Positions 27,080 to 30,082 of a stretch of DNA of 64,000 nucleotides are shown here, piece by piece. Position numbers and translations under genes: made by a program. This DNA is from the human T2T-CHM13v2.0 reference genome, Homo sapiens: assembly GCF_009914755.1 (NCBI RefSeq), contig NC_060926.1; one strand, 5' to 3'. A model generated the notes under the pieces. The model searched no databases. It saw nothing but the letters and a program-made list of their open reading frames with translations, and was not told the origin of the DNA. Within the stretch, counting starts at the first letter, position 1. Each line of letters opens with the position of its first letter.

Positions 27080-28040
27080 CTACCCAACATCACCTACCAC
27101 AGGCTATACTACTATTGTCTCTTATGTGAACTACTGGAATGGTGTCCCAACTGGCCTCCCTGCTTCCATCCTTGGTGACTTCCAATCCATTCTCCAGCTG
27201 AAATCAAATTAATGTTTTTACTATGTAGACAGGATTATGCAATTCTCCTGCTTAAGAAAAAAAAAGGCTGCTGATTTCACTGTGAATAAAATCCAAAGCC
27301 ATTGACATGGCCTGCAAGCCTCTGTCTACTTGTTCTACCTTTCTTCCACTCCTATTCTTCTAACTCTTGCTGATTCCGCATTTTTTAAACATATAATTTT
27401 GTTTGAGACAGGGTTTTACTGTCACCCAGGCTGGAATGCACTGATGAGATCATGGCTCACTGCAGCCTCGACCTCCCAATCTCAAGCAATCCTCCCACCT
27501 CAGCCTCTCACATAGCTAGGAATACAGACATGCACCACCACACTTGGCTAATTTTTTTATTTTTTGTGGAGACAGGGTCTCACTATGTTGTCCAGCCTTG
27601 TTTCAAACTCCTGGAGGCAAGTGGTTTTCCTGCCTGGGCCACTCAAAGTGCTGAGATTACCAGTGTAAGCCACTGCACCCAGCCTGATTCAGCTTTTTGC
27701 AGCCACAGAATATTCACAAATGCATTCTCTCAGCCCACAAAAATCCCTTCCCTCTCATTTCTATTTCTGTTTCTCACTTAAGGTCTTAGCTATAGGAGGC
27801 CTCCCCTGACCATTTCCACCCTCCCAGTCTCAGTTAGGTTCCTCTGTGCACCCTCATGGTACACAGACATGGCACACAGTACTTTTTATCAGAACACTCT
27901 TCAGTGTTTGTACCACTGTGTTTATTTGTGTGAGTATTTGATTGTTGTCATTCTCTCTCCTAGAGAGTAAGATCCTTGATACTGGCTCAGCATGGAACAT
28001 CTGGCACACAGTATGCACTGAGGAAATACTTGTTGGAATA
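27080..28040 (+). mobile_element. L2 with AluJ (27400-27685, minus) inserted
   Basis: ctggcctccctgcttcca and tggcacacagta...aaatacttgttgg L2 motifs, Alu dimer. Confidence 0.7.
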
Positions 28041-28362: not shown

Positions 28363-28550
28363 GTGGGGTGTGGGTTTGCTGGTACTTGTGGGGGCAGGTG
28401 AAGAACTTGAGCATATCACCCAACCCTTCAGGGATTTCCCTTCCCATTCCCAACAGCTCAGAGGAAGAGAACGGGAGACAAAGGACCTGGTGATTAGACC
28501 CCCAAGACACTGGGCTGTCTGCTTGTGTCTCAGGTGGAACAGGCCCAGCG
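28363..28550 (+). repeat. Direct duplication copy 1 (~188 bp)
   Basis: Near-identical to 29858-30046. Confidence 0.97.
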
Positions 28551-29408
28551 GGAAAGGGGTTGGGGCACAGAAATAAGGGGTTTGGGTGCAGAGATAAGAG
28601 GTCATGGGGTGGAAATAAGGGATAGGGGCACAGAGATAAGAGGTCAGGGGGTGGAAATAAGGGATCGGGGCACAGAGATAAGAGGTCGGGGCGTGGAAAT
28701 AAGGGATCAGGGCACAGAGATAAGAGGTTGGGGTTCCTGCCCCTCCCCCAGAAAAGCAGGACTTGCCACTAAGGGTGAAGGAGAAGGGGTTGAGGGGTTC
28801 TTGTCCTTCTTCTAGAAAAGCGGGACTTGCCGCTAAGGGTGAAGGAGAAGGGGTTGAGGGGTTCTTGCCCCTCTCCTAGAAAAGCAGAGAAGGGGTAGAG
28901 ACAAGGAGAGAAGGGGTTTGGGGTACTTGGCCCTCCCCCAGAAAAGCAGGACTTGCCGCTAAGGGTGAAGGACTAAGGCAGGCGTCCCTGCGTGGTCTGA
29001 CACCTCTGAAACGTGGGTGAATAATCAGAGAGGCGTCCTTGCGATGATTAAACACCAAGGGAAGGCTGCCTTCCTAGTCCGTGACGGGCGCCGGAGTTTT
29101 GGGTCCACGGATAAAACGTGTCTCCTTTGTCTCTACTAGAAAATGAAAGGAACTGAAATTAAGAGAAGGGAGAGATTGAAGTGTGGCGCTAAGATTGAAA
29201 GGAGAAAGAGGTTGAGGGATAGTGAGAGAGGTTGGAGAAGAGACTGAGAAGAGGCCGCTTACCTGATTTAAAATTGGTGAGATGTTCCTTGGGCTGGTGG
29301 GTCTGAGGACTTGAGGTCGTAGGTGGATCTTTTTCACGGAGCAGAGAGCAGGAGGACAGGGGATTGATCTTCTAAGGGAGATCCTTCGATCCAGGTCACG
29401 GCACCAAA
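28551..29408 (-). mobile_element. HERV-H internal leader/pre-gag region, 3'-truncated
   Basis: tRNA-His-like PBS (TGGTGCCGTGACCTGGAT, 29389-29406), major splice donor cag|gtaagc at 29263/29262, ~39-bp tandem repeats at 28556-28735. Confidence 0.93.
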
Positions 29409-29857
29409 TTTTATGTGCGTCCGTGTGAAGAGACCAGTAAACAGGCTTTGTGTGAGCAATAAAGCTTTTAATCACCTAGGTGCAGGTGGGCTGAGTCTGA
29501 AAAAAGAGTCAGCAAAAAGAGATAAAGGTAAGGCAGTTTTATAAGATTTAAGTAAGTAAAGGAAAATTACAATCAAAGAGGTTGTTCTCTGACGGGCAGG
29601 AGTAAAAGTCACAAGGTGCTCAGTAGAGGAGCTTTTGAAGCCAGGATAAGCCAGGAAAAAGACTTTCACAAAGTCATGTCATCACTTAAGACAAGGACTA
29701 GCCATTTTCACTTCTTTTGTAGTAGAATGTCATCAGTTAAGGCAAGGCAAAGTATTTTCACTTCTTTTGTGATTCTTCAGTTACTTCAGGCCATCTAGGC
29801 ATATACGTGCAAGTCACAAAAAATGTGATGGCTTGGCTTAGGCTCAGAGGCCTGACA
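29409..29857 (-). mobile_element. LTR7 (5' LTR of HERV-H), hypermutated
   Basis: Starts TGTCAGGCCTCTGAGCC on the minus strand, has a TATAAAA box and abuts the PBS. Confidence 0.95.
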
Positions 29858-30046
29858 GTGGGTGTGTGTGTTTGCTGGTACTTGTGGGGGCAGGTGAAGA
29901 ACTTGAGCATATCACCCAACCCTACAGGGATTTCCCTTCCCATTCCCAACAGCTCAGAGGAAGAGAATGGGAGACAAAGGACCTGGTGATTAGACCCCCA
30001 AGACACTGGGCTGTCTGCTTGTGTCTCGGGTGGAACAGGCCCAGCG
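29858..30046 (+). repeat. Direct duplication copy 2 (~189 bp)
   Basis: Near-identical to 28363-28550. Confidence 0.97.
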
Positions 30047-30082
30047 AGAGTCTTTAGGGCCAGAACTCAAGAATTTATTGAG
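29953..30082 (+). ncRNA. MTLN: Candidate upstream noncoding exon of long LINC00116/MTLN isoform
   Basis: Strong acceptor tttcccttcccattcccaacag| and donor gag|gtgagt. Confidence 0.55.

What the first reader, a model, noticed from the sequence alone, without database searches (positions are those of the whole stretch)
28735..29857. APOBEC3G-type hypermutation with opposite polarity in LTR versus internal region
Against the LTR7 consensus as I recall it, U3 shows dense GG>AG/AA changes on the window + strand, i.e. C>T on the proviral sense strand (cacaaaaaatg for cacaggggatg, gtagtagaatg for gtggtggaatg, agtaaaagtc for agtgggggtc, ataagatttaagtaagt for ataggatttgggtaggt). The internal part shows the reverse, canonical sense G>A. 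This is visible without any consensus by comparing repeat copies: gcccctcccccagaaaagc (~28739) versus gtccttcttctagaaaagc (~28803) and gcccctctcctagaaaagc (~28867). Established: A3G deaminates CC in single-stranded DNA, mostly the minus strand, while plus-strand C>T has been described for the 5' U3/PBS of HIV. Inference: one reverse-transcription intermediate was edited on both strands, which may also explain the broken end and aberrant integration.
Basis: partly seen in the sequence, partly recalled or inferred. Interest (0 to 1): 0.8.

Follow-up and report, generated by a model that had tools for sequence, protein, structure and literature searches.

The report
Retroviral fossil edited on both DNA strands
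A broken endogenous retrovirus copy carries dense APOBEC3G-style C-to-T damage on the "wrong" (plus) strand of its 5' LTR and the usual G-to-A damage just downstream, which suggests the host enzyme also attacked a late single-stranded step of reverse transcription.

Summary
Window 28551-29857 (minus strand) is a truncated HERV-H-type 5' LTR, primer-binding site and about 840 nt of leader. It lies between two copies of a ~186-nt host segment.

Compared with 32 natural full-length copies:
- **LTR:** 36 private sense-strand C>T against 1 G>A. 29 of 57 CC targets are hit, 18 of 22 CCC targets, and 0 CpG.
- **Downstream of the PBS:** 1 of 105 CC targets is hit (p=4e-15).
- **U5 onward:** 16 private G>A (12 of 47 GG targets) against 3 C>T. 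No other copy exceeds 5.
- **Host flank:** editing stops at the LTR edge, with 0 of 17 targets hit in the adjoining host copy.

The polarity switch maps to the R/U5-PBS interval.

A second, normally integrated provirus (chr2:34.8 Mb) has the same plus-strand editing in its 5' LTR only. Its two LTRs differ by 33 C>T in the 5' LTR and none in the reverse direction.

Best reading: an APOBEC3G-like deaminase edited the single-stranded plus-strand strong-stop DNA before integration. In the window copy it also edited the minus strand, and that DNA then entered by a one-ended, aberrant integration.

This is a new variant of a known kind. The six phrase-based searches of the held, open-access-only library that bore on plus-strand editing found no such description for endogenous retroviruses.

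The parts
28365..28550 (.). Left copy of the duplicated host target segment. It abuts the truncated proviral end.
   Evidence: Direct repeat 28365-28553 / 29861-30049, 97% identical. The copies differ at 3 of 173 ungapped positions. The flank is otherwise unique in the genome. 0 of 17 CC targets are changed relative to the right copy.
28551..29388 (-). HERV-H-type leader (el 470-1307), broken off at window ~28551-28547.
   Evidence: Colinear with the leader of 32 other proviruses. Homology to other copies ends at this point. A possible 4-nt overlap (CGCT) with the host sequence is supported by only 4 of 43 aligned copies.
28554..28972 (-). Tandem repeats of the leader (21/42-nt and 64-nt units). 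They include the G>A cluster at 28804-28813.
   Evidence: Unit number varies among copies, and the second unit carries 4-5 G>A in 10 nt that 27-32 of 32 copies lack.
28804..29438 (-). Domain of sense-strand G>A (minus-strand editing), U5 through leader.
   Evidence: 16 private G>A, 12 of them in GG context, against 3 C>T. GG targets are edited 12/47 and CC targets 1/105. In el 401-885 the pairwise G>A count is 14.2 (range 11-18) against a background of 5.3 (maximum 9.2).
29389..29406 (-). Primer-binding site (el 452-469), directly after the LTR.
   Evidence: The motif was located and is conserved in the other copies shown there. Its assignment to tRNA-His is recalled, not tested.
29439..29477 (-). 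Interval of the polarity switch, between the last C>T and the first G>A. It contains the ATTAAA poly(A) signal at 29467-29472.
   Evidence: There is only 1 CC target between el 381 and 468, so the limit of plus-strand editing is resolved only to window 29389-29477.
29408..29857 (-). Complete 5' LTR (el 1-~450). The intact terminus TGTCAGG sits at 29857, and the TATA box at 29537-29543.
   Evidence: The terminus abuts the right copy of the host duplication.
29478..29840 (-). Domain of sense-strand C>T (plus-strand editing), U3 into R.
   Evidence: 36 private C>T, 29 in CC context and 0 at CpG. 29/57 CC targets are edited, and 18/22 CCC targets.
29861..30046 (.). Right copy of the duplicated host target segment. 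It abuts the intact U3 end.
   Evidence: 0 of 17 GG targets (sense CC) are changed relative to the left copy, against 5/11 in the first 100 nt of the LTR (p=0.005) and 29/57 in the whole LTR (p=1e-4).

Best explanation
An APOBEC3G-like, CC-specific single-strand DNA deaminase edited this retroviral DNA before it was integrated.

[quoted passage not shown] It is made from the polypurine tract and then transferred to the other end of the minus strand. Here it was single-stranded long enough for about half of its CC sites to be deaminated. When the minus strand was completed over this template, the uracils were fixed as sense C>T in the 5' LTR only.

**Minus strand.** In the window copy the minus strand of U5 and leader was also edited in the usual way, giving sense G>A. 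The polarity therefore switches at the primer-binding site region.

**Integration.** The product was a 1.3-kb DNA with one authentic LTR end and one broken end. Integrase joined the good end and host repair joined the broken one, duplicating ~186 nt of target.

**Shown:** the spectra, the contexts, the limits of each editing domain, the confinement to viral DNA, and the 5'-LTR specificity in a second provirus.

**Inferred:** the identity of the enzyme, the identity of the single-stranded intermediate, the assumption that both polarities arose in one molecule, and the repair route.
For: 1. **Spectrum and context.** The LTR has 36 C>T against 1 G>A. CC targets are hit 29/57 against 7/67 for other non-CpG C (p=9e-7), with 0 at CpG. 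CCC targets are hit 18/22 against 11/35 for other CC (p=3e-4).
2. **Sharp limit near the PBS.** CC targets are hit 29/57 upstream and 1/105 downstream (p=3.8e-15).
3. **Confined to viral DNA.** 0/17 targets are hit in the host copy next to U3. Both host copies keep their G runs.
4. **Minus-strand editing from U5 on.** 12/47 GG targets are hit against 4/71 for other G (p=0.0045). The window is the outlier among 33 copies.
5. **An independent second case (loci L066+L083).** This provirus has a 5-bp target duplication. Its 5' LTR differs from its own 3' LTR by 33 C>T and by 0 of 104 in the reverse direction. CC targets are hit 23/52 against 7/78 for TC plus other (p=4.5e-6). Its 3' LTR keeps the state of 12 relatives. 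5'-LTR specificity is what editing of plus-strand strong-stop DNA predicts.
6. **Shared hot spots.** The two LTRs belong to different subfamilies (79% identical) yet share T at 21 of the window's 36 sites. Four subfamily mates of the second LTR share 4-7.
7. **Integration structure.** A truncated end plus a host duplication of hundreds of bp is the published outcome of one-ended integration (PMC5041404, passages read).
8. **Published counterpart.** Late single-strandedness of LTR DNA has been proposed for 3'-LTR-specific G>A in mouse Mtv proviruses (PMC12548423, passages read).
Against: [quoted passage not shown] The model therefore needs displacement or a stalled second transfer, and neither is shown here.
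- The window copy has no 3' LTR, so 5' specificity cannot be tested in the window itself.
- No empty site, paralogue or other primate genome was available. Pre-integration timing therefore rests on the 17-site flank comparison alone.
- The second provirus has three CC-context C>T within 50 nt beyond its PBS, outside strong-stop DNA.
- The second provirus shows no G>A excess in its leader: 17 G>A against 17 C>T.
- It also shows none in the 2 kb before its 3' LTR: 3 G>A among 42 private changes, with 6 comparators of which one aligned badly. This is unexpected if the enzyme was present throughout reverse transcription.
- In the window, G>A density is, if anything, highest next to the PBS (5/11 against 7/36, p=0.12). 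The canonical gradient runs the other way.
- The enzyme is inferred from context only.
Confidence: 0.72

Rival explanations
1. The viral DNA was complete and double-stranded. A 3'-to-5' exonuclease, or fraying of the ends, then removed the 3' ends of both strands. This exposed the plus strand at the U3 end and the minus strand at the other end to the deaminase. Reverse transcriptase or a host polymerase refilled the ends before integration.
For: This gives the same polarity pattern. In the second provirus it would also explain the three C>T just beyond the PBS and the seven 3'-LTR-specific G>A. It keeps editing confined to viral DNA.
Against: - In both cases the limit of plus-strand editing falls within about 50 nt of the PBS, which random trimming does not predict.
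- The 3'-LTR-specific G>A of the second provirus show no GG preference: 1 GG, 1 GA, 2 CpG, 3 other.
- For the window fragment, G>A should be densest at the broken end, but it is densest near the PBS (not significant).
Confidence: 0.1
2. The editing happened after integration, on chromosomal DNA. One possibility is a double-strand break near the PBS, resected on both sides, as in break-associated mutation showers. The other is single-stranded DNA at an active LTR promoter in the germ line.
For: 5'-to-3' resection from a break near the PBS would give exactly C>T to the left and G>A to the right on the sense strand. This is inference from the known polarity of resection, which is recalled. 5' LTRs differ from 3' LTRs in promoter use, so 5' specificity does not by itself exclude a promoter effect.
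Against: - Editing stops at the LTR edge: 0/17 in the adjoining host copy against 5/11 in the first 100 nt of the LTR (p=0.005).
- The context is CC/CCC, not the TC of the nuclear enzymes implicated in break showers (recalled).
- Transcription bubbles or divergent transcription would expose the opposite strands to those observed (inference).
- The same hot spots are hit in two unrelated loci.
Confidence: 0.05
3. In the window copy the two polarities come from two different replication cycles. Ordinary minus-strand editing occurred in an earlier cycle, and its G>A changes were inherited through the RNA. Plus-strand editing of the LTR occurred in the last cycle. No single intermediate was edited on both strands.
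For: The second provirus shows plus-strand LTR editing without any detectable minus-strand editing, so the two can be uncoupled.
Against: No copy in the genome shares the window's leader G>A set. The best non-self leader matches are 84-91% identical (39 scored non-self full-length hits; 1087 candidates, 40 scored), and each G>A is absent from 27-32 of the 29-32 copies with a base at that column, out of 32. One event is the more economical account.
Confidence: 0.2
4. The C>T changes were already in the template. Either the 3' U3 of the genomic RNA was edited C-to-U, or the changes were inherited from an LTR subfamily, or they are ordinary decay.
For: [quoted passage not shown]
Against: - In the second provirus the 3' LTR lacks the changes. 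RNA editing or ancestry would put them in both LTRs.
- No other copy shares them.
- None of the changes is at a CpG, and the direction is one-way: 41 against 2.2 in pairwise counts.
Confidence: 0.02

Closest known systems
G>A hypermutated endogenous retroviruses (HERV-K(HML2) proviruses edited by APOBEC3G; genome-wide screens of edited LTR elements)
   Same: The enzyme signature is the same: CC on the edited strand, seen as GG>AG on the sense strand. The changes are clustered and one-directional, and they are fixed in the germ line. The leader of the window copy fits this kind.
   Different: Those cases are G>A on the sense strand. The large screen in PMC4866542 (passages read) used sense C>T clusters as its negative control: 12,857 C>T sites against 137,954 G>A sites. 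Here the main signal is sense C>T and it is limited to the 5' LTR. The HERV-K papers were seen only as entries in a reference list.
Plus-strand C>T in the 5' U3 and primer-binding site of vif-deficient HIV-1 made in the presence of APOBEC3G (Yu et al. 2004, Nat Struct Mol Biol; recalled, not held)
   Same: The strand, the region (5' LTR and PBS) and the proposed cause (transient single-strandedness during reverse transcription) are the same.
   Different: As I recall it, those mutations were rare and came from cell culture. Here 44-51% of CC targets are converted, in germ-line fossils of a different retroviral group. In one case no minus-strand editing is detectable at all.
3'-LTR-specific G>A in mouse Mtv and MLV proviruses (PMC12548423, 2025; abstract and passages read)
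   Same: Editing differs between the two LTRs of one provirus. It is ascribed to a late stage of reverse transcription, when LTR DNA is single-stranded again. The consequence for LTR-divergence dating is the same.
   Different: That is the mirror image: the minus strand of the 3' LTR, giving G>A, with 2-16 sites per provirus. Here it is the plus strand of the 5' LTR, giving C>T, with 33-36 sites.
One-ended (aberrant) retroviral integration (ASLV end mutants; HIV with integrase inhibitors or mutants; PMC5041404, passages read)
   Same: One authentic LTR end, one truncated viral end, and a host duplication of hundreds of bp in place of the short one.
   Different: Those are experimental proviruses. 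This is a germ-line fossil, and the cause of the bad end is not known. Breakage of uracil-laden DNA is one possibility, and it is inference.
Break-associated mutation showers (kataegis) by nuclear APOBEC3A/B (recalled)
   Same: Strand-coordinated clusters whose polarity switches at a point.
   Different: That context is TC rather than CC. It acts on chromosomal DNA with no respect for element borders. Here the editing stops at the LTR edge.

Membership tests
APOBEC3G-type editing footprint on retroviral DNA | One-directional C>T (or complementary G>A) transitions dominate the private changes | tested here: met
   56 of 77 private changes are C>T or G>A. Pairwise counts give C>T 41 against T>C 2.2 in the LTR.
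APOBEC3G-type editing footprint on retroviral DNA | Target C is preceded by C, with CCC preferred, and is not at CpG | tested here: met
   CC 29/57 against other C 7/67 (p=9e-7). GG 12/47 against other G 4/71 (p=0.0045). 0 at CpG in the LTR. CCC 18/22 against other CC 11/35. That this preference is specific to APOBEC3G is established knowledge, recalled.
APOBEC3G-type editing footprint on retroviral DNA | Editing is on the minus strand, seen as sense G>A | tested here: not met
   Met for U5 and leader (16 G>A against 3 C>T). Not met for the LTR (36 C>T against 1 G>A). This is the respect in which the case departs from the known kind.
APOBEC3G-type editing footprint on retroviral DNA | Confined to reverse-transcribed DNA, not host flanks | tested here: met
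   0/17 and 0/17 targets are changed in the two host copies. The test is limited to the 173 nt that can be compared.
APOBEC3G-type editing footprint on retroviral DNA | The enzyme is APOBEC3G itself | not testable with these tools
   Only the context is available. Other CC-preferring deaminases of the ancestral host cannot be excluded.
Editing of plus-strand strong-stop DNA | Sense C>T is present in the 5' LTR and absent from the 3' LTR of the same provirus | tested here: met
   Met in the second provirus: 33 C>T in the 5' LTR and 0 of 104 in the reverse direction. Not testable in the window copy, which has no 3' LTR.
Editing of plus-strand strong-stop DNA | The editing domain ends at the 3' end of the primer-binding site | tested here: inconclusive
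   In the window the limit lies between el 380 and 469, with only 1 CC target in between, and 0/17 targets are hit in el 469-600. In the second provirus three CC-context C>T lie within 50 nt beyond the PBS.
HERV-H / LTR7 provirus | LTR-PBS-leader order, colinear with a large family of proviruses that have two LTRs | tested here: met
The family has at least 1607 LTR matches. The second provirus has two LTRs 5.3 kb apart. No repeat library was available.
HERV-H / LTR7 provirus | Short (5-bp) target-site duplication from integrase | tested here: not met
   The window has a ~186-nt duplication. The second provirus has a 5-bp duplication. The window copy is therefore a family member by sequence but not a canonical integration.
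Break-associated mutation shower (kataegis) | TC context, with clusters running through chromosomal DNA on both sides of a break | tested here: not met
   29 of the 36 LTR C>T are in CC context and 4 in TC. Editing stops at the LTR edge.

The most novel reading that the evidence does not exclude
Plus-strand editing of the nascent 5' LTR may be a recurrent, separate mode of APOBEC3G-type restriction. It would act late in reverse transcription, on a long-lived single-stranded plus-strand strong-stop DNA or 5' tail. It can occur with no minus-strand editing at all, as in the second provirus. If so, part of the sense C>T clusters that screens of edited retroelements discard as noise are real. Many 5' LTRs, which are the promoters, would have been inactivated selectively. 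LTR-divergence ages of such proviruses would be inflated.
Probability: 0.35. Interest if true: 0.8.

Novelty: new variant of a known kind. Interest (0 to 1): 0.66.

Why it matters
The accepted picture is that APOBEC3 enzymes edit only the retroviral minus strand, because only that strand is single-stranded. These fossils show dense editing of the plus strand, limited to the 5' LTR, in the germ line. In one case nothing is detectable on the minus strand.

- **Reverse transcription.** They give a natural record of a late intermediate and make its single-strandedness testable.
- **Promoter damage.** The 5' LTR, which is the promoter, can be hit selectively.
- **Dating.** The 5'/3' LTR divergence clock is distorted. 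In the second provirus 53 of 412 sites differ, and only 20 remain once C>T is set aside.
- **Screening controls.** Sense C>T has been used as the negative control in genome-wide screens for edited retroelements (PMC4866542). That practice is now open to question.

Tried and rejected
- **Subfamily ancestry:** rejected. No copy shares the changes.
- **CpG decay:** rejected. 0 CpG sites are among the 36 LTR C>T.
- **Paralogue or empty site for the flank:** none exists in this genome. Each flank matches only itself and the local duplicate.
- **LINE-1-mediated insertion of an antisense transcript,** which could give a long duplication and sense C>T: rejected. There is no A-tail at 29858 onward, the element ends exactly at the LTR terminus, and this would not explain the G>A downstream.
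- **Non-CpG methylation decay or transcription-coupled asymmetry:** rejected by inference. These would not be one-stranded, CC-specific and bounded by the LTR edge.
- **Search for further edited LTRs:**
  - Local searches with edited stretches gave one real second case (L066).
  - Two candidates proved ordinary: L084 and L085, with 4 and 2 CC-context C>T.
  - Prevalence stays unknown, because the genome search scores only its best 40 candidates.
- **Canonical G>A gradient in the second provirus:** not seen. The 2-kb comparison had only 6 comparators, one of them badly aligned (51% identity).
- **Literature:**
  - The two key papers are not held and are cited from recall: Yu 2004, and Mbisa 2007 on plus-strand transfer and integration defects.
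  - Phrase-based searches of the held, open-access-only library found no description of plus-strand or 5'-LTR-specific editing in endogenous retroviruses.
  - Supplements of PMC4866542, which may list C>T clusters, were not opened.
Full report
**What is there**

Read on the minus strand, window 29857 to 28551 is a retroviral 5' end:
- a complete LTR of about 450 nt that starts with TGTCAGG at 29857
- a TATA box at 29537-29543
- an ATTAAA poly(A) signal at 29467-29472
- a primer-binding site at 29389-29406
- about 840 nt of leader, including its 21/42-nt and 64-nt tandem repeats

I write positions in proviral sense as 'el': el p = window 29857-p+1.

The element belongs to a very large family. 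A search of the window's own genome gave 2910 LTR candidates and 1087 leader candidates, of which the tool scored 40 each. A degenerate LTR motif matched 1607 places. No repeat library was on hand.

The leader breaks off at about 28551. The element lies between two copies of a host segment, 28365-28550 and 29861-30046 (97% identical). These differ at 3 of 173 ungapped positions. The host sequence is otherwise unique in the genome.

**Checking the observation**

I compared the element with natural copies only.

58 loci were fetched. Two were the same places as others, and 24 did not span el 6 or less to 1200 or more. That left 32 full 5' LTR+leader copies, which I aligned.

A change was called private when at least 80% of the copies with a base at that column, and at least 60% of all copies, agree on another base, and at most 10% share the window's base.

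| Segment | Private changes in the window | Same count in the other 32 copies |
|---|---|---|
| LTR, el 1-400 | 41 in all: 36 C>T (29 CC, 4 TC, 3 other, 0 CpG), 1 G>A, 4 transversions | 0-4 CC-context C>T each |
| el 401-1307 | 36 in all: 16 G>A (12 GG, 3 GA, 1 other), 3 C>T, 8 other transitions, 9 transversions | 0-5 GG-context G>A each |

An earlier run with 29 LTRs gave the same picture. The window had 41 private changes, 34 of them C>T. Of the others, 28 rows had 1-14 and one poorly aligned row had 35, of which 19 were transversions.

Counts that use no majority call agree:
- **LTR, against each of the 32 copies:** reference C to window T averages 41 (range 37-46), and the reverse 2.2. Among the references themselves both directions average 5.2.
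- **el 401-885:** G>A averages 14.2 (11-18) against A>G 5.9. The background is 5.3, with a maximum of 9.2.
- **Repeat part, el 886-1307:** pairwise counts show no asymmetry. One repeat unit does carry 4-5 G>A within 10 nt (window 28804-28813) that 27-32 of 32 copies lack.

Elsewhere it is partly confounded by repeat variation within the family.

**Context and limits**

Per target site:
- **el 1-380:** CC targets are converted 29/57, other non-CpG C 7/66 (7/67 over the whole of el 1-400), CpG C 0/3.
- **el 381-468:** there is only one CC target, and it is unedited.
- **el 469-1307:** CC targets are converted 1/105.

The drop is significant at p=3.8e-15. CCC targets are converted 18/22 and other CC targets 11/35 (p=3e-4).

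GG targets are converted 12/47 from el 420 on, against 4/71 for other G (p=0.0045). In the G-poor U3 they are converted 0/6, which has no statistical power (p=0.32).

The accurate statement is therefore narrower than a simple two-way switch. Plus-strand editing is limited to the LTR and ends somewhere between el 380 and the end of the PBS. Minus-strand editing is seen from U5 onward and cannot be assessed in U3.

The last C>T is at window 29478 and the first G>A at 29438.

**Editing stops at the viral border**

In the host copy that abuts U3, 0 of 17 equivalent targets differ from the other host copy. This compares with 5/11 in the first 100 nt of the LTR (p=0.005) and 29/57 overall (p=1e-4). 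On the other side the count is also 0/17.

The deaminase therefore acted on the viral DNA, not on the locus.

**Not inherited**

No other copy shares the changes:
- The best non-self LTR matches are 85-87% identical.
- The stretch containing the fully converted four-C run has no partner that keeps the run.
- Among the 100 listed of 1607 motif matches, only the window has more than one T there.

**A second, independent case**

A local search with the most densely edited 126 nt of the window's LTR brought in an LTR of another subfamily at chr2:34.81 Mb (L066), 79% identical overall.
- It has T at 21 of the window's 36 C>T sites. Four of its subfamily mates have T at 4-7 of them.
- Against 12 close relatives it has 27 private C>T (23 CC, 4 TC) and 1 G>A. 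The relatives have 0-4.
- It is the 5' LTR of a provirus of about 5.7 kb with a PBS, a 3' LTR and a 5-bp target duplication. That provirus was integrated normally.

Its two LTRs must have been identical if reverse transcription ran normally. They differ at 53 of 412 aligned sites:
- 33 of these are C in the 3' LTR and T in the 5' LTR.
- None of the 104 C's of the 5' LTR is T in the 3' LTR.
- By context, the converted fraction is CC 23/52, TC 6/26, other 1/52 and CpG 3/7. CC against TC plus other gives p=4.5e-6.
- The 3' LTR keeps the state of the relatives.

In this provirus I found no G>A excess in the leader, with 17 G>A against 17 C>T. I found none in the 2 kb before the 3' LTR either: 3 G>A among 42 private changes, against 6 comparators of which one aligned badly.

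Three CC-context C>T lie within 50 nt beyond its PBS.

Two further candidates were ordinary, and two more local searches gave nothing new.

**How it most likely works**

The context (CC, CCC preferred, no CpG) is that of APOBEC3G. This is established knowledge, recalled.

[quoted passage not shown] This strand becomes the plus strand of the 5' LTR, and the last stretch of minus strand is copied from it. The 3' LTR is copied from the minus strand instead.

The second provirus shows that specificity directly. The window copy shows the confinement to viral DNA and a limit in the R/U5-PBS interval.

In the window copy the minus strand of U5 and leader was edited too. This is the ordinary route.

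Right after the second strand transfer, the two strands are annealed only at the PBS. Each carries a single-stranded arm of opposite polarity. One such molecule would give the observed pattern. That both polarities arose in one molecule is inference, and two successive cycles are not excluded.

The structure of the insertion matches published one-ended integrations, in which integrase joins the good end and host enzymes join the other. The features in common are one authentic LTR end, one truncated end, a host duplication of about 186 nt, and perhaps a 4-nt overlap at the broken junction (supported by 4 of 43 copies). In those experiments the aberrant end is often truncated and the host DNA is duplicated over hundreds to thousands of bp (PMC5041404, passages read).

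Breakage of uracil-laden DNA could have produced the bad end. The second provirus shows that plus-strand editing does not require an aberrant integration.

**What speaks against this reading**

- Textbook reverse transcription keeps the strong-stop DNA paired. [quoted passage not shown] Displacement or a stalled transfer has to be assumed.
- The three C>T beyond the PBS in the second provirus, and its lack of minus-strand editing, fit a late exposure of the end of a nearly complete DNA at least as well. Trimming and refilling of the 3' ends is one such route. I keep this as the main rival.
- Post-integration models give the right polarity but fail on three counts: the context, the sharp stop at the LTR edge, and the shared hot spots at two loci. 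These models are a resected break near the PBS, or promoter-associated single strands.
- RNA editing and ancestry are refuted for the second provirus by its unedited 3' LTR.

**Comparison with what is known**

- G>A-edited endogenous retroviruses are well known. The largest screen used sense C>T clusters as its negative control, with 12,857 C>T sites against 137,954 G>A sites (PMC4866542, passages read).
- Plus-strand C>T in the 5' U3 and PBS of vif-deficient HIV was reported in 2004, as I recall, as rare events. That paper is not held.
- A 2025 paper reports the mirror image, 3'-LTR-specific G>A in mouse Mtv proviruses. It describes this as the first demonstration that the enzyme can differentially mutate 3' LTRs, and notes that such LTR differences had not been reported for other retroviruses (PMC12548423, abstract and passages read).
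- Phrase-based searches of the held, open-access-only library found no description of 5'-LTR-specific plus-strand editing in endogenous retroviruses.
- Supplements that might list such clusters were not opened.

**Verdict**

This is a new variant of a known kind: the known enzyme footprint, but on the other strand and limited to the 5' LTR. It is now seen in two independent germ-line proviruses. It has consequences for how reverse-transcription intermediates are exposed, for LTR dating, and for the controls used in editing screens.

How common it is remains open.

Noticed in passing
L066 + L083 (G000:C2:34801000-34813421, minus strand): A normally integrated provirus of about 5.7 kb with a 5-bp target duplication. 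Its 5' LTR carries 33 C>T relative to its own 3' LTR, and none the other way. LTR divergence is 53/412, falling to 20/412 without C>T, so LTR-based dating would be inflated about 2.6-fold.
   Followed up: yes
L083, 3' LTR of the same provirus: Seven G>A are specific to the 3' LTR, against two C>T. They show no GG preference: 1 GG, 1 GA, 2 CpG, 3 other. It is unclear whether they are the mirror-image late editing described for mouse Mtv or ordinary decay.
   Followed up: partly
window 28363-28380 and 29858-29876: The duplicated host segment begins in a GT-rich run. The run differs between the two copies by two G/T changes and one base of length. This may be slippage or error-prone repair at the junction with the intact LTR end.
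   Followed up: no
window 28547-28551: At the broken proviral end, up to 4 nt (CGCT in sense) could belong either to the leader or to the host segment. This hints at microhomology-mediated joining. Only 4 of 43 aligned copies continue with that sequence.
   Followed up: partly
window 28554-28972: The leader's 21/42-nt and 64-nt tandem repeats vary in unit number and in unit sequence among copies of the family. Comparisons between units inside one copy are therefore an unreliable substitute for comparison with other copies.
   Followed up: partly
window 27377-27691: A repeat-masked stretch with an internal A/T-rich linker, probably an Alu, lies about 700 nt from the left host copy. It is not connected with the finding.
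   Followed up: no
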